The notes: generated from the letters alone by a model not told the origin. 64,000 bases of DNA from an uncultured Candidatus Saccharibacteria bacterium (GCA_964406145.1 CAYOQP010000002.1:13537-77536), one strand, 5' to 3'; positions 4,204 to 54,000 are shown, counted from the stretch's first letter. Translations and numbers: made by a program.

Positions 4204-4656
4204 TTGCTTAATTGGAAAAAGTTTCGTTATGGCCACTACTATTCTTCCTGTCTCAGTCGGATGATGGCCGCTCTCGAAAATACCGCAGACGAAGCGCGGC
4301 GGATCTTGGCCTTTGTCATTGATCCGACTCTCGTGGAGGTTGTCCCGGAGAGACTGACAGAGCAGTTCGTCGTTGAGATGGTCGAGCTGATGAAGCATGT
4401 GACGCATGATGTTGAGGAAGGGCTCGTCGTTCTCCTCGCTGTCTACATACATGCCAATCCATCGTCTGGCTCACGGCCAGCCATCGTTGAGCGTTTTGAG
4501 AAGATCTGTCTGGATGCGCGTTTCACGGCCGAGATCAGAGCTCTGGCTAATGTGTCAGCGGACCTCAACATCGGGTCGAAGATGCGCAATGTTCGCCCGG
4601 AACATCTGACCTTCGCTCTGCGTTGGCTCACGACAATCATGGAAGAAGGCGATTGA
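4204..4656 (+). CDS. hypothetical protein; GC-rich ORF inserted between rplA and rplJ
   Basis: 150-aa ORF with a TTG start 8 nt after AAGGAG; noticeably higher GC than its neighbours; no recognisable motif. Confidence 0.35.
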   Translation: MLNWKKFRYGHYYSSCLSRMMAALENTADEARRILAFVIDPTLVEVVPERLTEQFVVEMVELMKHVTHDVEEGLVVLLAVYIHANPSSGSRPAIVERFEKICLDARFTAEIRALANVSADLNIGSKMRNVRPEHLTFALRWLTTIMEEGD

Positions 4657-4892
4657 TCGCTACTTCCAACTGCACCGGCCGCGGAGTGACTTAACTCCGC
4701 GGCGTCAGGCATTTCACTATTGACTCACATCTAAATATTTGTTATAAAATAAGAGTTCCATTGACCATGAGGCCCCGGTCACCCTTGCAAAAGGGTGAGG
4801 GGTTAAACTAAAACCTTATGCAGGATAAACATTAGCTCATTTTGAGTTTTTGCCTGCGTAACAGCAGGTTTTTTTAATAAAAAAGGGAAAAA

Positions 4893-7155: not shown

Positions 7156-7184
7156 TTGACACAAACACGAAAATATGTTAAAAT
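7156..7184 (+). promoter_or_regulatory. sigma70-like promoter (TTGACA-17-TAAAAT) at the left edge of the GC-rich island
   Basis: Consensus -35 with 17-bp spacer; AAGGAG RBS before ATG 7242. Confidence 0.5.
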
Positions 7185-7241
7185 ATCGCAAGCTCAGCCT
7201 GGGAAAGATCGAATTCAGGCGAGCTAACAAGGAGCGGGAAC

Positions 7242-7871
7242 ATGCGTACTTTGATAATTTTGAGCCTTGTGCTCACGGTGGCGATCCCGATGATCGTCCT
7301 TACCGGTTGCGGCCAGAAGCAACCGGACCGTGCCCTTTTGGCTGCGGTGGACTACTCTGGCTCGGTTGATTCCAAGGAGCGCGCCGACTACGTCGGCAAG
7401 CTCGAGGAGCTGATCGACCGGCAGGATGGCAAGGCAGAGGTAACACTCTACGTCTTCGCCAAGACGCCGGAAAAGGTCTACTCTGGCCGACCTCTTGACT
7501 TCACCGACTGCTGGTTGGTGGATGACGAGACCAAGGCTCGTGAGGCCGACAAGACTCGTGGAACGAGTCTTGCTCCCACGCTGGAACAGTATTGCAGGGA
7601 TGCAGCTGCTACCAGCCTGCCAGTGATTGCCGTTCTGTTCACAGACGGTGATTGCTTCGATGTCCCGCGTACCAAGGCGGCGGCAAAGAAGCTGGCAGAA
7701 ATGTCTAATTTCAAATGTCTGATGGTCGGACCGCTGACGACCGATAGACTCGGACTAGAGAACAGTACCCTTTCGCCCCTGCGCGATAGTGGTAAGCTGG
7801 TCACTTGTGGCCAGCACGACGTCGCCGACGCGTTCAACACGCTCATGGCGAAAGTGGGAGGCTCCAAATGA
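7242..7871 (+). CDS. vWA-like lipoprotein
   Basis: Lipoprotein signal (LTGCGQ); MIDAS-like DYSGSVD; VIAVLFTDGD. About 60% GC. Confidence 0.55.
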   Translation: MRTLIILSLVLTVAIPMIVLTGCGQKQPDRALLAAVDYSGSVDSKERADYVGKLEELIDRQDGKAEVTLYVFAKTPEKVYSGRPLDFTDCWLVDDETKAREADKTRGTSLAPTLEQYCRDAAATSLPVIAVLFTDGDCFDVPRTKAAAKKLAEMSNFKCLMVGPLTTDRLGLENSTLSPLRDSGKLVTCGQHDVADAFNTLMAKVGGSK

Positions 7872-9190
7872 CAAACCAGCGTTACACCGACGTAGACGAT
7901 CTCCTGGCGGCTGAGCCCCAGGACACTACCGGAGCCCCCACGGCTCCCGATATGGATGTCATGACCCTGCTGCAGCCGATCAATCATGATCTGGCTGCAT
8001 ACCAGACCGCCATCGACGCGATGGCCGCTTCCTACCCGGAAGAGGCGGCGCGTCTGACAGTTCTGCTGTCCCAGCTTCGCGAGACGGGCAACCGTTTCGA
8101 GGATGCTCGTGCTAGCGCAGAAACGCTGCGCAACCAGCTCATCGGACAGCGCCAGACTCAGCGCAATACGATCGAGACCGACCTGAAAACGGTCGTCTCT
8201 GCTCTCGTACCATTGCGTCAGGCCCACGATGCCAAAGCGGCCGCCTTCCGCCTGGAAGCCGCCAAGTATGGTGTCAGTTGTGAGCCGTCTGGCCCCGCTT
8301 ATCAGGCCGCCCTGGCCGAAAAAGCAGGAGTCGTTATTCCGGAAGAGATCCCGGCCCTGCCGGAACTCATGCCGGAACTGACCCAGAAGACCAAGTTGAT
8401 GGGGCTGAGCGACATCTTCGCCTCGATCCTGGTTGGCCTCTTCGTCGCTGTCTGTGTGTTGAGCGCTTTCGGGTTCTTGACATATCGCGCGATGAAGACG
8501 GGGCAAATTGACCCGATCGCCTGGGTCCTTTCCCCGTTCGGTCCCCTCGTTGTCTTGCTCGTCGGCATTGCCATCGCCTGGGTGACCAGGAACCTGCTCG
8601 AGCTGGAGATGGAGGATTCGTCCAAATCCCAGCGCAGCATGGCTTATGGCTCTGCCATTGCGATCGGCGCCATCTGGCTGGCGGAGATGTTCTTAGAGGC
8701 CTACGGTCTCTTCCGTCTCTCTCAGGAGAAGGCTGCCATCGCGGCGCGCATGACTGGGCAACCGGTCGAGGCAACTCCGCTTGCGTTCCTCGTCATCCTG
8801 GCGCTGATCGTCACGACACCGTACTTCGTCTATAAGGCTCTCAAGGCCTACAACGATACGATGCCGCGGATCAAAGCCTGGCGTGAGCGCAAAGCGGCCG
8901 AGCGCCAACGGGCCGAAGCTCTGGCACAGCGCGCCAGCGCCTGCCAAGCCATAGAGACGCTATGTCGCACGACCCCGCGCCTGCGGGACATCGGCGGCAT
9001 TGTCGCTCAAGCGGACGCGCTCGCGTCGCAGATTGAGCCCCTCGAGGCCCGCGAAGTACTGCTCCGGGAATCCTTAGAGGACCTGGAGGGGGAGCCCGAA
9101 CTCCCTGCCCTTACCCAACAGACACTGCTGCGCTTGCGCACCGGTGTCGAGACCCTCGAGCACCAGCTCGTGGAACGTCTCACGACTTGA
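7868..9190 (+). CDS. polytopic membrane protein with N- and C-terminal coiled-coil regions
   Basis: ATGA overlap with the upstream stop; GGGAGG RBS; four hydrophobic helices in the middle; high GC. Confidence 0.55.
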   Translation: MTNQRYTDVDDLLAAEPQDTTGAPTAPDMDVMTLLQPINHDLAAYQTAIDAMAASYPEEAARLTVLLSQLRETGNRFEDARASAETLRNQLIGQRQTQRNTIETDLKTVVSALVPLRQAHDAKAAAFRLEAAKYGVSCEPSGPAYQAALAEKAGVVIPEEIPALPELMPELTQKTKLMGLSDIFASILVGLFVAVCVLSAFGFLTYRAMKTGQIDPIAWVLSPFGPLVVLLVGIAIAWVTRNLLELEMEDSSKSQRSMAYGSAIAIGAIWLAEMFLEAYGLFRLSQEKAAIAARMTGQPVEATPLAFLVILALIVTTPYFVYKALKAYNDTMPRIKAWRERKAAERQRAEALAQRASACQAIETLCRTTPRLRDIGGIVAQADALASQIEPLEAREVLLRESLEDLEGEPELPALTQQTLLRLRTGVETLEHQLVERLTT

Positions 9191-9214
9191 TGCCTTTACC
9201 GGCATCCCTATCAC

Positions 9215-9250
9215 GCCCTCGGCCAACCGGCCGAGGGCGTTGTGTATCTA
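9215..9250 (+). terminator. intrinsic terminator
   Basis: GCCCTCGGCC-AACC-GGCCGAGGGC perfect hairpin followed by a T-rich stretch. Confidence 0.7.
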
Positions 9251-9317
9251 TGGGATTTTTTACTTTGCCATATACATATATATGTATGAAGAAATCATAT
9301 ATAAAGTCAAATTGTTA

Positions 9318-9560: not shown

Positions 9561-10005
9561 ACTCTTATGCACGATAGGAAATGAAGTCGTGAGCAACACA
9601 CAAAATAGTAACGAAAAGCATGAATACTGGCGCATATGATCGAGGGTAATTGCACAGAATCAAGTTTACCTAGAATCAGGCGACAGCGTCCTGCATAATT
9701 CAATCCATCGCAAGATGGAATCGTGGGTTCCCCCTCCGCCCGCGAGAGTTATGCAGAACAGTGTCGCTTTATTTGTCTCAAAAGAGACAATATAGGGTCA
9801 CCTGCACATTAACAATATTATAAACTTTCTCAGCAAAGAATTAGCTAATCACACACTATGGCGCTCGTAACGGCGTAATCTGATCTTGCGATCACTCGCG
9901 CCAGAGGAAACGCCAGAATAGCCCTGATCTCGATTGGCAACTTCTTGCTGAGAAAGCACACTCCAGCCCGTCAATATGACGGATCTTGATAGAAGGAGAA
10001 AGACG

Positions 10006-10899
10006 ATGAATAAACTCGTCACCCTCATCACTTTGTCCGTCATCTTAGTTATGACGGCTGGACTCAACGCATTTGCCGTCTCTGACGGCTATGCCTACGG
10101 CACGGCCCCTGCGCCGACCATGACCAACCCGGCCCCTGTGCCGGCTACCAGTTCTTCCACTGCTACTGCGAAGGCAGAAGCCGTGATCAATCAGATGATC
10201 ACGAAGAAGACCGTTGTGGTCCACCGCCATGGTGGCGGGACCGTAGTCAACGTGCCGCGGCAAGCGGCACCCGTAGTGAATAACTACATCGTGCCGCCGG
10301 CACCGCCGGCAAAGGAGAACGATATGAGTGGAGTACTGATGGGCCTAGTGGTCCTCGGCTGCATCGCGGTTATCGGCGTCATCGCTTGGATCATTACTGC
10401 CGTCATTCAAGGCGGTATGATCGCTCGCACAGAGCAAGCCGCCGCCGCCCGTGAGACCGCACAGCAAAACGCCATCCAGGCCAATGCATTAGCGGCCGCC
10501 AATGCCGCTGCCCGTATCCCTGGGTATGAAGCGCTCAATCTGAGCGTCACGCCCACTGGCCTGCACATGAACGTGCGCCCAGCGAATCCCACGCCGGTCA
10601 TCCCCGCCGCTCCGGTCGCGCCGCCCCCAACGCCGATCATCATCATCCCGCCGGCTGCGCCTGCCCCTGCGGCCCCCGCCGCTCCGGCTGGCTACATGCC
10701 AGCGCCGGTCTTCACCGTAGCGCCGATCACCCTCGTCCCAGTCGGGCACGCTCCGGCACCCGCCCCGGGACCCGCACCTGCTCCGGCACCTGCCCCTGCA
10801 CCTCGTCCCGCCCCGGGACCCGCACCTGCTCCGGCACCTGCCCCTGCACCTCGTCCCGCCGGTGGTGGTGCTCGCCGCCCCGCTCGCACAACCCCGTAA
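10006..10899 (+). CDS. signal-peptide/TM protein with Pro/Ala-rich tandem-repeat C-terminus
   Basis: AAGGAG RBS; N-terminal signal peptide; one internal TM; PAPAPGPAPAPAPAPAPRPA repeated twice (48-bp DNA tandem repeat). Confidence 0.5.
   Translation: MNKLVTLITLSVILVMTAGLNAFAVSDGYAYGTAPAPTMTNPAPVPATSSSTATAKAEAVINQMITKKTVVVHRHGGGTVVNVPRQAAPVVNNYIVPPAPPAKENDMSGVLMGLVVLGCIAVIGVIAWIITAVIQGGMIARTEQAAAARETAQQNAIQANALAAANAAARIPGYEALNLSVTPTGLHMNVRPANPTPVIPAAPVAPPPTPIIIIPPAAPAPAAPAAPAGYMPAPVFTVAPITLVPVGHAPAPAPGPAPAPAPAPAPRPAPGPAPAPAPAPAPRPAGGGARRPARTTP
10763..10858 (+). repeat. 2 x 48-bp perfect tandem repeat encoding the Pro/Ala-rich segment
   Basis: ccccgggacccgcacctgctccggcacctgcccctgcacctcgtcccg occurs twice, head to tail. 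Confidence 0.8.
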
Positions 10900-11017
10900 G
10901 GTTTGTGCGGCAGAGATCCTGTCTCTATGCTCGCCCCCGTGGCGTGCTGGAGACAGTCCTCTGCGAATCATTCCAGACATTCACCCAGCGACCTTGAACT
11001 TGAAGGAGGTTTCAACC

Positions 11018-11569
11018 ATGTCCGACACTCCCGCCGGCACCACCGGCAAAGCGCAGATCAAGCTTCCGCAGCTTCCGCCGGCAGTTGAGCCGGAAGATCT
11101 GCGGACTCGCCTGATGGAAGTGGCAGTTGCCACCCCGTCCGGCGAACGCGCCAAGATGATCGATGCTCTCTCGCGGAAAATGGCCGGTGGCAGCAATGCC
11201 GTCGAGCATCTCCTCGAAGTGATCGAAGACACCAGCGCGGCGCGCGAAGAAATCGTCGGCGCCATCGCCATCCTCATCTCCCCCGCGATCTGGGACAAGT
11301 ACACCAATCCCGATCTGCGTGGAGCTGTCGTCTCCTGGCTCGTGTGGCTGGCCACACAGGAGTTCGACTCCGACATCAGCTTGACCGCGCTGGCGGCAGC
11401 CCAAGCCCTCCTCGCCGAGGGACCGCTCCGCAAGGAGCACGCCAACACAGTCAAAACCTGCATTCTGCAGGCGCGACAGATGGATCCGCCGCTCACCTGG
11501 TCCATCGCCGTCTCGTTCGTCTTCGACTTCGTCGCCAGCAATGGTGGCGAGTCGAAAGACAAGCAATAG
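11018..11569 (+). CDS. hypothetical protein (GC-rich island)
   Basis: GGAGG RBS 7 nt before ATG 11018; high GC; no recognisable motif. Confidence 0.4.
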   Translation: MSDTPAGTTGKAQIKLPQLPPAVEPEDLRTRLMEVAVATPSGERAKMIDALSRKMAGGSNAVEHLLEVIEDTSAAREEIVGAIAILISPAIWDKYTNPDLRGAVVSWLVWLATQEFDSDISLTALAAAQALLAEGPLRKEHANTVKTCILQARQMDPPLTWSIAVSFVFDFVASNGGESKDKQ

Positions 11570-11584
11570 TGAGCATCGCCGCGG

Positions 11585-11648
11585 CCCCCACTCTTCCTGA
11601 AAGGGTGGGGGATTCGCATTTTATAAGGACTTTATTAGTCCTTTTTTT
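11585..11648 (+). terminator. double hairpin terminator at the right edge of the GC-rich island
   Basis: CCCCCACTCTT...AAGGGTGGGGG followed by AAGGACT-TTATT-AGTCCTT and a T7 run. Confidence 0.65.
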
Positions 11649-11667
11649 GGTGCCAATTTTGTCTTAT

Positions 11668-37070: not shown

Positions 37071-37210
37071 AAGCTCCTTCGTGCTTCCTCACACAATGTG
37101 TGAGGAAATCATCAAAGAACTTTGAGAGTATTGATGTCTCCACCAACATCATCAACGATATATATTATAACATACTCATTCGTATAAAGTCAAGAGGGTA
37201 TTATTTGAGC

Positions 37211-37236
37211 AAATAAAAAACATCCGTTAAGGATGT
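37211..37236 (-). terminator. intrinsic terminator (minus strand) at the end of a GC-rich noncoding region
   Basis: On the minus strand: ACAUCC-UUAAC-GGAUGU followed by UUUUUUAUUU. Confidence 0.6.
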
Positions 37237-37800
37237 AGCTCGCTCCAACCCGGGTGGAAGATGTTCCCGGGTTGGAGCCTGCGAGCGCGCCTGTGCGTAG
37301 AGTGCGGTCAGGCGCATTGTGAGGGCTTGCCCCTCTTGATAGCGGTGAAACGCTGACGATCGCCCTAGCATCACGGGCGTGTCACGGTGTGTTGGTTTTT
37401 GACCGCTCGAAAGCGGTCGGTGGTCTGTGTCGTCCACGTTTGAAGCCGTGCACGACTCTCGATGAACCCTGAGGGCTTATCGAGGTTAAGAAGTAGTGGG
37501 GGTGATGTTCCCGCCTAGTGGAGCCTGTTCGGACTCCGACAACGCGGGTGCACATCGACCTCGGTCTTGGTGACTGCTTCCACCAATGTCGTAGCAGGTG
37601 AAGCGGGCGGGCCGCTCACTGCTAAAGCTTGAGTGATCTCTGATTGGATCGAGACGATGGCCCGGATGCTTGGAGCAACGGGAGCCACGGAAACGTATAC
37701 CGAGATCACTTGGGCCGGTGGAGGAGGACTTTGAATGATAAGCATTCACTTTCTCCTACCGAGAGTCTTTGAACACTGTCACACAGCTTGACACTAGCTC
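37237..37800 (-). ncRNA. candidate structured noncoding RNA of unassigned family (GC-rich, ORF-free)
   Basis: About 560 bp of markedly GC-rich DNA in an AT-rich genome. No plausible protein. Many strong hairpins, including a 13-bp perfect stem GCTCCAACCCGGG/CCCGGGTTGGAGC. Bounded by a minus-strand intrinsic terminator. Confidence 0.35.
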
Positions 37801-37879
37801 AGTGCTCAATGCAAAAATGGTAGCAAAAACATGTTTTGCTTGTCAATAATATAGATTGGTATTTGCTAATTAAGCTTCT

Positions 37880-50587: not shown

Positions 50588-51434
50588 CCATCACGATGTC
50601 GTAGGTGCCACATATGGCTTCGTTGTTTTCCTCTATTATTGTTCTGGTTGGAAATAGGAGTTTTATTGCATCAGCGTTTGTTTTGAAGGCGGTTTTGTAA
50701 TAAATGTATGTACTTTGATAAGTAAACACTTTCGCATTACCCAAGAAACCAACCACGTAGCCGTCGGCCTCCAACGTTTTCTTTATTGTGTTAGCTGAAC
50801 CTGTTATGCCATTGCCGTTTAGCAGTTTGAGCTTAATAGCTGACTTTGCTGTTGTTGTGACAGTTGCAGGAGTTGTTGTTTGTGCTGGTGCAGTTATTGG
50901 AGTAGTTGTCTGGGCTGTCGAGCCGGTTGTTGCTGGCGCAGTTGTGGTCCCAGTAGAATAATCTTGGGGTACTATTTTGACAGTTTGTGTGATGTTGCCA
51001 CCCGTACCATCCTCTTTGCCTGTTTGGGTATTGTAAAAATCCTTTATCTTCTCAAAGTTTTGAAAAGCTAAAAGCGATAGTGCAAAAACCAACAAAAACA
51101 ACAAAAGCCAACGATTAAAAATTCTCTCAAATAAGGATTTTTCCGGGATAGATTTTGCCTTTGACTTTTGGGTTTCTTTGGTCTTCGGTGTTTTGTCGAA
51201 GAAACTTTCAAAATCAGCTACTTTTGAAGGCGCTTTTTCTTCTGTCTTTTCCTCGACTTTTTTTTCTGCAATCTCTTCCTTTGCCTTTTTTGGCTCTGGT
51301 TCGGGAGATTTTTCTGAAGTTTTAATTTTCACTTCCTCTGGTTCATTTTCAATCACAGGAAGCTCATGCGATGGTTTTGCATGATCAGAAAAACGCGAGT
51401 GCTTTCTTGGTTGTATATCGTTTGATATTCCCAC
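50571..51434 (-). CDS. LytR_C (cell envelope-related) domain protein with Thr-rich linker
   Basis: TM anchor; TTAPATTGSTAQTTTPITAPAQTTTP linker; C-terminal LKLLNGNGITGSA...GYVVGFLGNA. Confidence 0.6.
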   Translation of the reverse strand: MGISNDIQPRKHSRFSDHAKPSHELPVIENEPEEVKIKTSEKSPEPEPKKAKEEIAEKKVEEKTEEKAPSKVADFESFFDKTPKTKETQKSKAKSIPEKSLFERIFNRWLLLFLLVFALSLLAFQNFEKIKDFYNTQTGKEDGTGGNITQTVKIVPQDYSTGTTTAPATTGSTAQTTTPITAPAQTTTPATVTTTAKSAIKLKLLNGNGITGSANTIKKTLEADGYVVGFLGNAKVFTYQSTYIYYKTAFKTNADAIKLLFPTRTIIEENNEAICGTYDIVMVVGKK

Positions 51435-51521
51435 GTGCCCCTCACTTATGGTTTTCTAAATTATAGCACAACTAAGTTTGTTGTCTATTTGAGATCTATA
51501 AAAAAGTTTAATTAAATAGTT

Positions 51522-52133
51522 TTATCGAAATTTTCTGATCACACCTTTGACTTTGCCCTGTATAGTGACGCGTTCTTTTTTAAACAACATTGGCTGCATG
51601 GTGTGGTTAGCTGGCTGAAGCCGAACGTTATTTTTTTCCTGATAAAAACGTTTTAGTGTCGCATTAGCGTTATCGATCAAGGCCACAACAATGTCGCCAT
51701 TCTTAGGTGAGGCAGTTTGCTCGATGATAACATAGTCACCTTCTAATATACCATCTTCAATCATTGACTCGCCTCTGACTCTTAGAGCAAAAGTCCGTCG
51801 TCCAAGCATGTCTCTTGGAATATCAATGGTTTCGTTGGTACGGATTGCCTCAATTGGTCTACCAGCGTCGATGATACCCAAAAGTTGAATTGAATGGAGC
51901 TCTATGCCGTCATCAAAAGTTGGTGTTAGTTGAATCGCCCTAGCTTCCATGGCATCTTTGGTTAGATAACCTTTCTCGGCCAAGATACTGACATATTCGG
52001 CGATAGTGCCTGTTGAAGAGAGTTCAAAATAATGGGCTATTTCACGATAGCTAGGTGCATAGCCATTTTCATCAATAAAATTACGTATATAGTCTAATAT
52101 TTCCTTTTGTCTGCGAGTGAGCGGTTCCATTTT
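51522..52133 (-). CDS. lexA: LexA repressor
   Basis: wHTH N-terminus (LTRRQKEILDYI); S24 peptidase with RVRGESM and K in GKV. Confidence 0.85.
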   Translation of the reverse strand, partial: KMEPLTRRQKEILDYIRNFIDENGYAPSYREIAHYFELSSTGTIAEYVSILAEKGYLTKDAMEARAIQLTPTFDDGIELHSIQLLGIIDAGRPIEAIRTNETIDIPRDMLGRRTFALRVRGESMIEDGILEGDYVIIEQTASPKNGDIVVALIDNANATLKRFYQEKNNVRLQPANHTMQPMLFKKERVTIQGKVKGVIRKFR

Positions 52134-52561
52134 GTTCGGTCTCCTTATGCTTACATTATCGAACAAAAACCAAACAAAAGTCAAACAAAATCTGTGGATA
52201 AATCTATCTTTGTTTAGCTATTGACAAAAAAATAAGCTAGGACTATATTACCTTCTAAGGTGAGGTAGTTGCTGGCTAGCAGTTCCCCACGATGACTCGA
52301 CGCACGGCTTTGTGTGAGTTCCGCCATGGTTTCAACCTTGGTATTCTCTATCCCTGGGATACCATCCCAAACTGCCCAACGTCTCTCGTCGTCTGCAAAC
52401 GAGCGCAAATCCCCGCAGCAATGCGTCCGTTCGTTAGCAATTACCGCTTAGCCTTCCGTCAGTGCCACCAGATGGTGGCCCTCTACCTCACCGACTTCTT
52501 TCCGAGATCCGTCACGGCCTATGCCTTGACGGATCTTGACTTTTGTAGCCCGTATTTAGTC

Positions 52562-52780
52562 TTGACAAAGTTATATAAAAAATGTAGAAATAATATGCCA
52601 ATCGCTAGCTTGTCGTCGCGGGGAGACGCCAAGAAGACGATTGGTTTGCCGCCGTGGGGACGCCCACTTTTCCACTGGAGGAGCCTGATTCAGCCCTGTT
52701 TCAGGCTCCTCATAACACACCCGACACATTCAAGGTGATGAGTTTGAGGAAACATGTCCATTGGTTGGACTTTTTTTAAT
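52562..52780 (+). ncRNA. candidate small RNA (promoter TTGACA-17-TAGAAA, 11-bp perfect hairpin, 3' intrinsic terminator) partly antisense to the rlmD 3' end
   Basis: Promoter 52562-52590. Hairpin GAGGAGCCTGA/TCAGGCTCCTC at about 52679-52712. Terminator GUCCA-UUGGU-UGGAC followed by U7 at about 52755-52777. Confidence 0.3.
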
Positions 52781-54000
52781 TCTAGACCATAAGTTTTAAA
52801 TTCTTTGATATCTCTAGCAAAAGTTGCTGGATTGCATGAAACATATATGATCGACTGAAAATTTGTCTGTGAAATCACTTTGATTAACTCTTTGTTCAAT
52901 CCGGCTCGTGGCGGATCAATAATTATTTTGTCAAATTTTTCTCGCTTATTCTTGATAAGCCACATCGTGGCATCGTCGCAAACGAAATCAATATTACTAA
53001 CTTTATTAATTTTTGCATTTGATTTCGCATCATTAACTGCACTTTGAACGACTTCGACACCAAAGACTTTTTTGGCGATAGTTGAGAGGTAAATTCCGAT
53101 TGTGCCAGTACCACAATAAAGGTCTAGCACGTTCTCACCAAATTTAATTTCAGCAAATTCTTTAATTTTGTCATAGAGATTTTTTACACCTAAAGAATTG
53201 GTCTGAAAAAATGAATCAGGCGAAATTTGAAAAGAGTATTTGCCGATTTTCTCATAAATGATTGGTGAGCCATAAAGTAAACGTCTTTTGACATTATGAA
53301 GCGAGCGATTGTGTGTAATTGTGTGATATATCGACTTAATCTCAACAATTTCTTTTAATGCGACTTTCAAATCTTTTTCTTTTATTAGTTCATCCGTGTC
53401 GGTGATCAATTCAACCATTGTTTCGTTGGTGAATTTTCCTTCTCGAATTTTTACTTGGTAAAAACCGTTCAAAGATTCTCTGTCGAGGTTAACAATTTCT
53501 AATATTGTATTTAAAATCTTGTTTGATCTCTCTGATTGCAAAAGACAGCTTTCTGCCTCAACAAAACCATCTTCGAAAAGATAATTATGGCGGGTAAATA
53601 TTTTTTGGCCCGAAGGTTTTTCAATTAAAAAAAATCGGATGGAGTTTCTATAATAAAAAGGCTCACTTGTTTGAATTATCGGCAAAACATCAGTTTTAAT
53701 GCCTTGCCTATCAAGAGTTTCTCGAAAAACCTCTTCCTTGAATTTGAGCTGATTTTGATAGTTAATATTTTGATGCTCACAGCCGCCACATTCGGAAAAA
53801 TATTGACATGGCGGCTCAATACGATCTTTTGACGGCTCAATTATTTTCTTGATCACTGCTTCACAGTAGCTCTTTTTTTGTTTAGAGATCTCGACTTCCA
53901 ATATATCTCCGGGCACACTTTTTTTGACAAAAATAGCCTGACCGTCATTGTGGCCTATCCCCCATCCTTCGTAGATAAGTTTCTCGATTTCGATTTTCAT
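52690..54000 (-). CDS. rlmD: 23S rRNA (uracil-5)-methyltransferase RlmD/RumA family
   Basis: TRAM domain; Fe-S Cys cluster (C..CGGC); class-I SAM methyltransferase motifs; FPQTHHLE C-terminus. Confidence 0.85.
   Translation of the reverse strand: MKIEIEKLIYEGWGIGHNDGQAIFVKKSVPGDILEVEISKQKKSYCEAVIKKIIEPSKDRIEPPCQYFSECGGCEHQNINYQNQLKFKEEVFRETLDRQGIKTDVLPIIQTSEPFYYRNSIRFFLIEKPSGQKIFTRHNYLFEDGFVEAESCLLQSERSNKILNTILEIVNLDRESLNGFYQVKIREGKFTNETMVELITDTDELIKEKDLKVALKEIVEIKSIYHTITHNRSLHNVKRRLLYGSPIIYEKIGKYSFQISPDSFFQTNSLGVKNLYDKIKEFAEIKFGENVLDLYCGTGTIGIYLSTIAKKVFGVEVVQSAVNDAKSNAKINKVSNIDFVCDDATMWLIKNKREKFDKIIIDPPRAGLNKELIKVISQTNFQSIIYVSCNPATFARDIKEFKTYGLELKKVQPMDMFPQTHHLECVGCVMRSLKQG

What the first reader, a model, noticed from the sequence alone, without database searches (positions are those of the whole stretch)
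52230..52780. Second GC-rich noncoding patch between lexA and rlmD, including a promoter-hairpin-terminator unit antisense to the rlmD 3' end
52260-52560 is GC-rich with no sensible ORF; on the minus strand it would be the lexA 5' leader. At 52562-52590 a TTGACA-17-TAGAAA promoter points rightward. It is followed by an 11-bp perfect hairpin (52679-52712) and an intrinsic terminator (GUCCA-UUGGU-UGGAC plus U7, about 52755-52777) that lies inside the last about 25 codons of rlmD on the opposite strand. This gives an about 180-nt candidate sRNA, comparable in size to 6S or SRP RNA, although no diagnostic SRP or 6S motif was seen.
Basis: seen in the sequence. Interest (0 to 1): 0.6.

Follow-up and report, generated by a model that had tools for sequence, protein, structure and literature searches.

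The report
Two small-RNA genes between lexA and rlmD
The GC-rich spacer between lexA and rlmD in this Berkelbacteria-like genome most likely holds two tandem genes for small structured RNAs, read opposite to both neighbours, that match no described RNA family and whose function is unknown.

Summary
The interpretation needs correcting. The window comes from a Candidatus Berkelbacteria-like (CPR) genome.

Patch A (52256-52546) is not the lexA leader. lexA has its own conserved promoter at 52155-52184. It is closed by a 10-bp long-range helix and ends in a terminator-like hairpin.

Its 11-bp hairpin holds the rlmD stop codon in its loop. The "terminator" inside rlmD is a weak 5-bp hairpin built from the conserved codons KKVQPMD.

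Related genomes carry homologous or analogous units at the same site. Each has a perfect TTGACA box, a structured GC-rich body, compensatory stem changes and an intrinsic terminator, and each points opposite to rlmD and lexA. Other close relatives have nothing there.

Nothing matches Rfam (no 6S, no SRP), Pfam, phages or plasmids, and there is no conserved ORF.

Verdict: probable lineage-specific small RNA genes in a variable intergenic hotspot. Function is inferred only: a base-pairing regulator and/or an antisense insulator. Interest is moderate to low.

The parts
51522..52130 (-). lexA coding sequence (202 aa plus stop). It flanks the locus on the left.
   Evidence: ORF list. The translation starts MEPLTRRQKEILDYI. 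It is 100% identical to P0001, which carries the LexA_DNA_bind and Peptidase_S24 domains.
52134..52184 (-). lexA's own promoter, TTGACT (52184-52179), 18 nt, GATAAT (52160-52155). It is bracketed by the inverted repeat GTTCG (52134-38) and CGAAC (52160-64), a presumed operator.
   Evidence: Promoter scan, 10 of 12 matches. The inverted repeat is unique in the window. The block is conserved in relatives with and without the RNA units. The operator role is inferred.
52193..52201 (-). Exact DnaA-box consensus TTATCCACA, lying between the lexA -35 box and the RNA-A promoter.
   Evidence: It is the only exact copy in the 64 kb, which alone is not significant (43 of 100 shuffles). It is kept as TGTGGATAA, TGTGGAAAA or TGTGGACAA in most of the relatives read (L048/L049 have GCTGGGGATAA and L005/L009/L023 have no recognisable box), including several that lack the RNAs. 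It belongs to the lexA upstream region, not to the RNAs.
52221..52249 (+). Promoter P_A: TTGACA, 17 nt, TATATT.
   Evidence: It is the best promoter match in 51400-53200, 11 of 12. The pattern TTGACA-N17-TANNNT occurs 8 times in the window against 0.69 expected. Equivalent perfect TTGACA promoters stand in front of the homologous RNAs in L001, L016, L004, L017, L040 and L050.
52256..52546 (+). RNA-A, about 290 nt, 54% GC and 59% pyrimidine. Its parts are: closing helix P1, GGUGAGGUAG (52259-68) with CUACCUCACC (52483-92); a branched interior; a C/U-rich single-stranded linker GACUUCUUUCC (52493-52503); a terminator-like hairpin at 52504-52537 (dG -22.6); and the tail GACUUUUGU.
   Evidence: Folds and z = -6.1. 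L001 and L016 share the P1 sequence, and L050 has a shorter, related closing helix (UGGUGGC/GCCACC). All three share the order P1, CCCUUUC-type linker, terminator hairpin. A-U in the window becomes G-C in L001 and L016 at one P1 pair. The 5' and 3' ends are inferred, not mapped.
52562..52591 (+). Promoter P_B: TTGACA, 17 nt, TAGAAA (or TG-n-AGAAAT).
   Evidence: Read from the sequence. It aligns with the L003 promoter, sharing the blocks TTGACAAA and AAAAAATGT. L002, L038 and L019 have TTGACA-17-TAATAT at the same place.
52597..52711 (+). RNA-B core, about 115 nt and 61% GC. Its parts are: hairpin H1 at 52597-52645 with apical loop GCGGGGA; hairpin H2 at 52654-52667; linker UUUUCCACUG at 52668-52677; and hairpin H3 at 52678-52711 (11 perfect bp, dG -24.3, no U tract).
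   Evidence: Folds. L003 shares the unpaired motifs GGGGAGAC and CGCCCACUU, while the H1 stem sequences differ yet still pair in each. L002 and L038 keep a three-hairpin plan and show compensatory changes.
52690..54000 (-). rlmD (23S rRNA U5-methyltransferase family) coding sequence. Its stop codon (52690-52692) lies in the loop of H3, and its last residues, MRSLKQG, are encoded by the 3' arm of H3.
   Evidence: ORF list, alignment with relatives, translation and Pfam tRNA_U5-meth_tr hits on the orthologues.
52756..52777 (+). A 5-bp hairpin, GUCCA-UUGGU-UGGAC, followed by U7, inside rlmD codons K-K-V-Q-P-M-D. It is a possible back-up terminator that would extend RNA-B to about 181 nt.
   Evidence: Terminator scan; dG -6.7. 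The U7 tract, from codons TTA AAA AAA GTC, is present in all nine loci where an RNA abuts rlmD. It is absent from L004, L017, L032, L022 and L025. This link is confounded by phylogeny, and the stem is missing in L003, L040 and L050.

Best explanation
The 556-bp spacer between lexA and rlmD carries two tandem transcription units on the + strand. They run divergent from lexA and convergent with rlmD. Each unit has a sigma-70 promoter, a GC-rich stably folded RNA and a 3' hairpin.

- RNA-A is about 290 nt (52256-52546).
- RNA-B is about 115 nt (52597-52711), or about 181 nt if it ends at U7 (52777).

They are lineage-specific small noncoding RNAs of Berkelbacteria-like bacteria. They sit in an intergenic site that holds different RNA cassettes, or none, in closely related genomes.

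What is shown:
- The promoters, folds and terminator-like elements.
- Homologous or analogous units at the same site in relatives.
- Compensatory base changes in stems.
- No protein-coding signal.
- No match to any described RNA family.

What is inferred (about 0.25-0.3 each, not exclusive):
- (a) The RNAs act by base pairing through their pyrimidine-rich single-stranded segments. The C/U-rich linker just before the terminator resembles an anti-Shine-Dalgarno sequence in several homologues.
- (b) Because every version is transcribed against rlmD and lexA, the units act as an antisense and terminator insulator. That would keep read-through from the rlmD operon from expressing lexA outside LexA control.
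For: Promoters:
- P_A scores 11 of 12 and is the best in the region.
- This promoter form is 12-fold enriched in the window.
- Every homologous unit has a perfect TTGACA box with a -10 box 16-18 nt away in the same orientation.

Terminators:
- The homologues end in clear intrinsic terminators on this strand. Examples are L040 CGGGGGGCUUUUUAUUU, L002 CCCUCUCUUUUUCUUUUU, L019 GGGGGUCCGUUUUCUAUUU and L050 GGGACAUUUUCCUUUU.

Strand:
- This strand has the lower MFE in 12 of 13 units (winA is the exception) and the better z-score in 11 of 13.
- Several G-U pairs on this strand would be A-C mismatches on the other strand.

Structure under selection:
- L001 against L016 gives 41 predicted pairs, 6 with changes on both sides and 0 broken.
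- L002 against L038 differ at 11 positions. Ten of these lie in one stem and all keep pairing.
- P1 shows A-U in the window against G-C in L001 and L016.

Not coding:
- No Pfam family.
- The 148-aa ORF is an orphan.
- There is no conserved or hydrophobic small ORF on either strand, and L001 against L016 shows an indel that shifts the frame.

Not a lexA leader:
- The lexA-proximal promoter is conserved in relatives whose rlmD-lexA spacer is only 165-200 bp and has no GC-rich insert.

Orientation:
- All four structural types (A, A', B and the L040 type) point the same way.
Against: - There are no expression data, so the transcript ends are inferred.
- RNA-A's U tract is poor (GACUUUUGU).
- RNA-B's H3 has no U tract. 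The only U7 is 60 nt further on, behind a weak stem made of conserved codons.
- For patch A the minus strand folds slightly better in absolute energy (-114.2 against -110.1 kcal/mol).
- Homology of window RNA-A to L001, L016 and L050 rests on position, promoter, the P1 sequence and module order, not on an alignable interior.
- Few independent sequences are available, so covariation cannot be tested statistically.
- The anti-Shine-Dalgarno core is only modestly enriched: 15 observed against 8.3 +/- 3.2 in shuffles, reached by 18 of 500 shuffles. It is absent from window RNA-A.
- Close relatives do without any such unit, so the function is dispensable.
Confidence: 0.6

Rival explanations
1. The structures belong to the minus strand. 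On this reading the region is the rlmD 3' UTR, its terminator and a long lexA 5' leader within one rlmD-lexA transcript, as the first reader supposed for patch A.
For: - rlmD and lexA are co-oriented and no canonical terminator follows rlmD.
- On the minus strand H1 is followed by a U-rich stretch, CAUAUUAUUUCUACAUUUUUU.
- The minus strand of patch A folds at -114.2 to -119.8 kcal/mol, z = -3.6 to -4.6.
Against: - lexA has its own conserved promoter and operator block at 52134-52184.
- The closest relatives by LexA identity have no insert.
- Perfect -35 boxes and U-tailed terminators are conserved on the other strand in all homologues.
- The z-score favours the + strand in 11 of 13 units.
- G-U pairs would become A-C mismatches on the minus strand.
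Confidence: 0.13
2. The patches are non-functional debris, either a degraded gene or a scrap of foreign GC-rich DNA. Promoter-like and hairpin-like features would then be incidental.
For: - Close relatives either have or lack the insert, and GC content is atypical for the genome.
- The window holds other GC-rich islands of probable foreign origin.
- The spacer is an insertion hotspot. L038 has a 395-aa gene there, and L048 has an element flanked by inverted repeats.
Against: - No similarity to any protein, tested on the listed ORFs rather than on all six frames.
- No similarity to phage, plasmid or viral-contig DNA.
- Folding is well above shuffles.
- Stem changes between homologues are compensatory with none broken.
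- Consensus promoters and terminators are retained across divergent versions.
Confidence: 0.08
3. RNA-A is an orphan riboswitch-like sensor. A multi-stem junction closed by P1 and followed by a terminator would gate antisense transcription into RNA-B and the rlmD 3' end.
For: - The architecture is P1, junction, then terminator.
- In L001 against L016 the junction strands are the most conserved parts, for example GCAUUGGCGCUCCUAGAGACAG, while the stems vary.
- A terminator hairpin follows directly.
Against: - There is no downstream sense gene.
- P1 has 10-13 perfect pairs, which is far more stable than usual switching helices.
- I saw no convincing alternative (antiterminator) pairing by inspection.
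- The junction sequences are not conserved in the window's RNA-A or in L050.
- No known aptamer model matches.
Confidence: 0.07
4. One of the units is a housekeeping RNA (6S, SRP or the like) too divergent for the Rfam models.
For: - Size range, strong promoter and high GC fit such an RNA.
- L001 and L016 can be drawn as a closing stem, two conserved unpaired strands and a long terminal stem, which loosely resembles 6S.
- No 6S or SRP was found anywhere in the 64-kb window.
Against: - No hit even at E <= 10 in small search spaces.
- The window RNA-A and L050 fold as branched or rod shapes without a central bubble.
- No SRP domain IV motif is present.
- Close relatives lack any RNA at this site, and the versions that exist are not alignable with each other. 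That is unlike an essential conserved RNA.
Confidence: 0.05
5. The locus is an SOS-linked type I toxin-antitoxin pair, like tisB/istR-1 or dinQ/agrB. A small toxic peptide would be encoded on one strand and an antisense RNA on the other.
For: - The locus lies next to lexA.
- On the minus strand of several homologues, sequences resembling a Shine-Dalgarno site plus ATG lie opposite the C/U-rich segments. Examples are L050 GGGGAGGTGGCAATG and L001/L016 TAGGAGCGCCAATG.
Against: - The candidate peptides share no similarity.
- None is hydrophobic (GRAVY -1.2 to 0.4).
- Reading frames differ between L001 and L016.
- The window has no such ORF at all.
Confidence: 0.03

Closest known systems
Lineage-specific intergenic small RNAs with C/U-rich pairing segments (RsaE/RoxS, and S. 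aureus RNAIII-type UCCC motifs); recalled from established knowledge
   Same: - A stand-alone gene with a sigma-70 promoter and a 3' hairpin.
- Stable stem-loops separated by pyrimidine-rich unpaired segments that could pair with purine-rich ribosome-binding sites. The typical site in this genome is AAGGAG.
- A narrow phylogenetic range.
   Different: - No sequence or covariance-model similarity.
- The units are much more GC-rich and larger (RNA-A is about 290 nt).
- The anti-Shine-Dalgarno core is weak or absent in the window's own copies.
- No targets are identified.
6S RNA (Rfam RF00013)
   Same: - Size class of 150-300 nt, strong promoter and high structure content.
- L001 and L016 show conserved unpaired strands flanked by covarying stems.
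   Different: - No model match even at E <= 10.
- No rod-with-central-bubble fold in the window copy.
- Presence is patchy among close relatives.
Convergent or antisense transcription units that shield or silence neighbours (excludon-type arrangements, shared bidirectional terminators); recalled from established knowledge
   Same: - The units are always transcribed against both flanking genes.
- The 3' hairpin sits on or beside the rlmD stop codon in every RNA-bearing locus whose RNA abuts rlmD (window, L001, L002/L038, L003, L016, L019 and L040; about 25 nt away in L050). In L004 and L017 the RNA ends about 190 and 60 nt before the stop.
- The RNAs are fully complementary to any rlmD-to-lexA read-through transcript.
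   Different: - Overlap with the rlmD coding sequence is at most a few codons in most relatives.
- No data show read-through or interference.
SOS-associated type I toxin-antitoxin RNAs (IstR-1/tisB, AgrB/dinQ; PMC2577331, PMC3567139)
   Same: A small RNA gene beside an SOS-related gene, with opposite-strand arrangements.
   Different: - No conserved toxin ORF.
- No LexA-operator-like repeat over the RNA promoters. The only GTTCG...CGAAC pair is at the lexA promoter.

Membership tests
6S RNA (RF00013) | Match to the family covariance model | tested here: not met
   No hit at the gathering threshold in the window or in 10 loci. No hit at E <= 10 in window 52100-52900 or in L001 5300-5560.
6S RNA (RF00013) | An extended rod: closing stem, large central bubble, terminal stem | tested here: not met
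   The window RNA-A minimum-energy fold is a branched multi-helix domain, and L050 is a rod without a bubble. Only L001 and L016 can loosely be drawn that way.
6S RNA (RF00013) | A housekeeping gene conserved in related genomes | tested here: inconclusive
   It is absent from this site in L032-L037 and others, but whole genomes could not be searched.
Bacterial SRP RNA (RF00169, RF01854) | Match to the covariance model, and the domain IV motifs (GNAR loop with the conserved A/G-rich internal loops) | tested here: not met
   No hit at E <= 10. No GGAA...AGCA-type helix 8 motif was seen on reading the sequence.
Stand-alone bacterial small-RNA gene | Its own promoter in the right orientation | tested here: met
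   P_A scores 11 of 12. P_B is TTGACA-17-TAGAAA and is conserved in L003. The promoter pattern is enriched, 8 found against 0.69 expected. Homologues all have perfect -35 boxes.
Stand-alone bacterial small-RNA gene | Intrinsic terminator at the 3' end | tested here: inconclusive
   In the window there are strong hairpins (dG -22.6 and -24.3) but a poor U tract or none. U7 follows only a weak in-CDS stem. The homologues have clear terminators.
Stand-alone bacterial small-RNA gene | Secondary structure conserved by compensatory change | tested here: met
   L001 against L016 gives 6 double-sided changes and 0 broken pairs among 41. The L002 against L038 stem swap keeps all pairs. There are too few sequences for a statistical test.
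Stand-alone bacterial small-RNA gene | A detectable transcript with defined ends | not testable with these tools
   No transcriptome data are available. Samples SRR12261223 and SRR12261224 carry the identical locus.
Riboswitch or cis-regulatory leader | A downstream gene in the sense direction, and a match to a known aptamer | tested here: not met
   The next gene on the + strand side is rlmD, in antisense. There are no Rfam matches.
Type I toxin-antitoxin | A conserved short hydrophobic ORF opposite or next to the RNA | tested here: not met
   A scan of ORFs preceded by a Shine-Dalgarno-like sequence, on both strands of 12 units, found no shared peptide and no hydrophobic candidate.
cis-antisense RNA to rlmD | Substantial overlap with the rlmD transcript, conserved across relatives | tested here: inconclusive
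   In the window the overlap is 22 nt (to 52711) or 88 nt (to 52777). In relatives the RNA terminator only touches the stop codon or the last 2 codons.

The most novel reading that the evidence does not exclude
The lexA-rlmD spacer of Berkelbacteria may be an orientation-locked hotspot where unrelated, strongly promoted, GC-rich structured RNA cassettes are repeatedly gained, swapped and lost. Types A, A', B and the L040 type occur there, and two sit in tandem in this window. The cassettes would be selected for a shared job that does not depend on sequence. One candidate is acting as an antisense and roadblock insulator that keeps lexA under strict autoregulation. Another is acting as fast-evolving conflict RNAs in these episymbiotic, reduced-genome bacteria. 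This would be a class of RNA element defined by position and orientation rather than by sequence.
Probability: 0.15. Interest if true: 0.6.

Novelty: new member of a known kind. Interest (0 to 1): 0.35.

Why it matters
Almost nothing is known about regulatory RNAs in Candidate Phyla Radiation bacteria, and their genomes are so small that noncoding DNA is scarce. This locus offers two candidate small-RNA genes that could be tested directly. They have clear promoters and comparative support for their structure, and they belong to no described family.

They lie next to the master SOS regulator. They show a striking pattern of cassette turnover with a fixed orientation. If the units insulate lexA from upstream read-through, or regulate translation through anti-Shine-Dalgarno-like segments, they would be a first glimpse of RNA-based control in this lineage.

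If they prove to be ordinary lineage-specific small RNAs, the value is mainly better annotation. The 148-aa ORF that one pipeline called here (L042) should be removed.

Tried and rejected
- Known RNA families. Rfam found nothing at the gathering threshold on the window and 10 loci, nor in E-value mode on the region, on 9 loci and on the L001 unit.
- tRNA and tmRNA. ARAGORN found none.
- Repeats or mobile-element copies in the window. There are none beyond the internal hairpins.
- DNA similarity to phages and plasmids, and three conserved motifs searched in viral contigs. All gave nothing.
- Protein coding. There is no Pfam family. The 148-aa ORF hits only itself. No conserved small ORF exists.
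- MAFFT alignment of window RNA-A with L001 and L016, and of the five type-B units. Neither gave a trustworthy alignment, so no covariance model was built.
- RNA-A to RNA-B kissing through UCCCCGC and GCGGGGA. I rejected this because a complement of 7 nt or more arises in 80% of shuffles.
- Anti-Shine-Dalgarno motif enrichment. It is weak (18 of 500 shuffles reach the observed count) and absent from window RNA-A.
- Strain variation. Contigs of the same species (L041, L042) are 100% identical across the spacer.
- Literature searches on CPR small RNAs, 6S RNA in CPR, and lexA-divergent small RNAs. None gave anything specific.
- Further homologue collection.

Full report
**Context.** The window is about 42% GC. 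Its closest relatives are metagenome-assembled genomes of Candidatus Berkelbacteria (Patescibacteria, CPR). The RlmD protein is 71% identical to that of PEZW01000018. Gene order there is hisS, spoU, rlmD, lexA, LytR_C protein, gdh, the same as in the window. The finding covers the spacer between lexA (51522-52130, minus) and rlmD (52690-54000, minus).

**Checking the observation.**
- The GC profile shows two patches. Patch A is 52250-52550 (0.52-0.58 GC) and patch B is 52600-52750 (0.56-0.60 GC). An AT-rich gap separates them.
- TTGACA-17-TAGAAA lies at 52562-52590.
- The 11-bp perfect hairpin is at 52678-52711 (dG -24.3).
- GUCCA-UUGGU-UGGAC plus U7 lies at 52756-52777.
- Both patches fold much better than dinucleotide shuffles.
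- No ORF is credible. Five ORFs have no Pfam family. The 148-aa ORF that spans both patches finds only itself among 5.8 billion proteins.

- The strongest promoter match in the region is TTGACA-17-TATATT at 52221-52249 on the + strand. It lies immediately upstream of patch A. This promoter form is strongly over-represented in the window, 8 copies against 0.69 expected.
- lexA has its own promoter, TTGACT-18-GATAAT at 52184-52155, bracketed by GTTCG and CGAAC.
- Patch A is therefore a divergent + strand unit, not the lexA leader.
- Patch A is closed by a 10-bp long-range helix, 52259-68 with 52483-92. A C/U-rich linker (52493-52503) and a 34-nt hairpin (52504-37, dG -22.6) with the tail GACUUUUGU follow it.
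- In patch B the rlmD stop codon lies in the loop of the 11-bp hairpin. The last residues of RlmD, an extension compared with its orthologues, are encoded by the 3' arm of that hairpin.

**Comparative evidence.** I collected 50 loci around rlmD or lexA orthologues. Read in the window's orientation, the spacer holds different things in different genomes.
- **Type A.** L001 (identical in L018, L043 and L044), L016 (identical in L045 and L046) and L050 carry a perfect TTGACA promoter. In L001 and L016 a closing helix GGUGAGGUGG...CCACCUCACC follows; L050 has a shorter one, UGGUGGC...GCCACC. Then come a CCCUUUC-type linker and a terminator hairpin. This is the module order of window RNA-A, and L001 and L016 share its P1 sequence.
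- **Type A'.** L004 and L017 share the promoter context next to lexA. Their bodies differ, with repeated CUCCUUUC motifs and a strong terminator.
- **Type B.** L003, L019 (identical in L047), L002 and L038 have a promoter, three hairpins and a terminator that abuts the rlmD stop codon. L003 shares with window RNA-B the promoter blocks and the unpaired motifs GGGGAGAC and CGCCCACUU. The H1 stems differ completely in sequence yet still pair in each.
- **L040 type.** L040 has yet another 210-nt closed domain with a promoter and a terminator.
- **No GC-rich RNA unit.** This group includes L032-L036, the closest relative by LexA identity (91%), whose spacer is about 200 bp. It also includes L037, L005 (identical in L020), L009 (identical in L024), L022 and L023.
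- **Other inserts.** L038 has a 395-aa gene inserted there. L048 has an element flanked by inverted repeats.

**Evidence that these are structured RNAs on the window's + strand.**
- L001 against L016 gives 41 predicted pairs. Six have changes on both sides and none is broken.
- L002 and L038 differ at 11 positions. Ten of them sit in one stem and keep every pair.
- One P1 pair is A-U in the window and G-C in L001 and L016.
- The + strand has the lower MFE in 12 of 13 units and the better z-score in 11 of 13. It also has more G-U pairs in all ten homologue units, though not in the window's own RNA-A and RNA-B.
- All homologues have U-tailed terminators and perfect -35 boxes on this strand.
- L001 and L016 differ by a frame-shifting indel, and no small ORF is shared on either strand.

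**The in-CDS "terminator".** The stem GUCCA/UGGAC comes from the codons GTC-CAA-CCA-ATG-GAC (V-Q-P-M-D). The U7 tract comes from TTA-AAA-AAA (L-K-K). The stem is lost where the fourth codon does not end in TG, as in L003, L040 and L050. The U7 tract is present in all nine loci whose RNA abuts rlmD, and absent in L004, L017, L032, L022 and L025. That association is interesting but confounded by phylogeny. The stem is weak (dG -6.7). Window RNA-B's H3 lacks a U tract, so U7 may still serve as the actual stop.

**Known families.** Rfam 15 gives nothing at the gathering threshold for the window or for ten loci. In E-value mode only noise appears, even in search spaces of 260-800 nt. 6S and SRP are therefore not supported. 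The window RNA-A fold is branched and shows no rod with a central bubble. No tRNA or tmRNA is present. There is no similarity to phages, plasmids or viral contigs.

**Mechanism.**
- Shown: two promoter-to-structure units on the strand opposite to both neighbours, and structure conserved in homologues.
- Inferred: the function. Two ideas fit the anatomy.
- First idea, base pairing. The transcripts are pyrimidine-rich (52-60% C+U), and an unpaired C/U-rich segment lies just before the terminator. In L001, L050, L003, L004 and L017 this segment contains the anti-Shine-Dalgarno core. Genes here use AAGGAG-type ribosome-binding sites. The enrichment is modest: 15 cores on the + strand against 3 on the minus strand, with shuffles giving 8.3 +/- 3.2. 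Window RNA-A lacks the core.
- Second idea, insulation. All four structural types have the same orientation, and their 3' hairpins mostly sit at or near the rlmD stop codon. That suggests selection for convergent transcription and hairpins that stop the rlmD operon from reading into lexA. Such a job needs position and orientation but not sequence, which would explain the rapid turnover.
- I cannot separate these two ideas with the available tools.

**Verdict.** The feature is best described as two candidate small-RNA genes of undescribed, lineage-specific families in a variable intergenic hotspot. It is a new member of a known kind. Interest is moderate to low unless the orientation-locked cassette turnover proves to reflect a specific mechanism.

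Noticed in passing
window 37200-37846: A second ORF-free GC-rich patch of about 600 nt (0.55-0.585 GC) lies between the thioredoxin and PHO4 phosphate-transporter genes. It has a minus-strand promoter TTGACA-18-TACCAT (37846-37817) and a minus-strand terminator-like hairpin ACATCC-TTAA-CGGATGT plus T6 near 37245-37215. It is a candidate minus-strand RNA of about 580 nt. Rfam gives no match at the gathering threshold or at E <= 1.
   Followed up: partly
window 52193-52201: An exact DnaA-box consensus (TTATCCACA, minus strand) lies about 10 nt upstream of the lexA -35 box. It is the only exact copy in the 64 kb. It is conserved as TGTGGATAA, TGTGGAAAA or TGTGGACAA upstream of lexA in most of the relatives read, including several without RNA units; L048/L049 have a degenerate version and L005/L009/L023 none. 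This may mean DnaA input into lexA expression.
   Followed up: partly
window 52134-52184: The lexA promoter TTGACT-18-GATAAT is bracketed by the inverted pair GTTCG...(21 nt)...CGAAC, followed by the conserved block CGAACAAAAACCAAACAAAAGTCAAAC. The spacing differs from the usual CGAAC-N4-GTTCG LexA box of Gram-positive bacteria, which may indicate a different operator layout in this lineage.
   Followed up: no
window 4711-4885: A promoter TTGACT-17-TATAAA is followed by a structured leader that ends in GCCTGCGTAACAGCAGG plus T7, just upstream of rplJ (L10) and rplL. It looks like an L10-leader-type attenuator that the Rfam models do not recognise.
   Followed up: no
window 7180-9289 and 9966-11656 (also 4204-4656): These islands are 0.59-0.63 GC, with a local peak of 0.765, in a 0.42 GC genome. 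They carry long ORFs with no confident Pfam family (only a sub-threshold DUF2201 hit for 7242-7871). TTGACA-type promoters lie at 7156, 9318 and 9532. They are probably foreign or otherwise unusual DNA.
   Followed up: no
window about 25-38 kb: Gene orientation switches from + to - near 25-26 kb, and cumulative GC skew peaks around 35-38 kb. This looks like a replication terminus. If so, the + strand RNA units at 52 kb are transcribed head-on to replication.
   Followed up: no
L048/L049 (upstream of lexA, reverse complement of L048 830-1215): In this relative the same spacer holds an element of about 180 nt flanked by a perfect inverted repeat of about 19 bp, CCGTGATTCCCTAAAACC...GGTTTTAGGGAATCACGG. 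It resembles a MITE or a long hairpin. This is further evidence that the site is an insertion hotspot.
   Followed up: no
L042 884-1330 (same as window 52292-52738): A public gene call annotates the spurious 148-aa ORF across both RNA patches as a protein. It has no relatives and should be regarded as a mis-annotation.
   Followed up: yes
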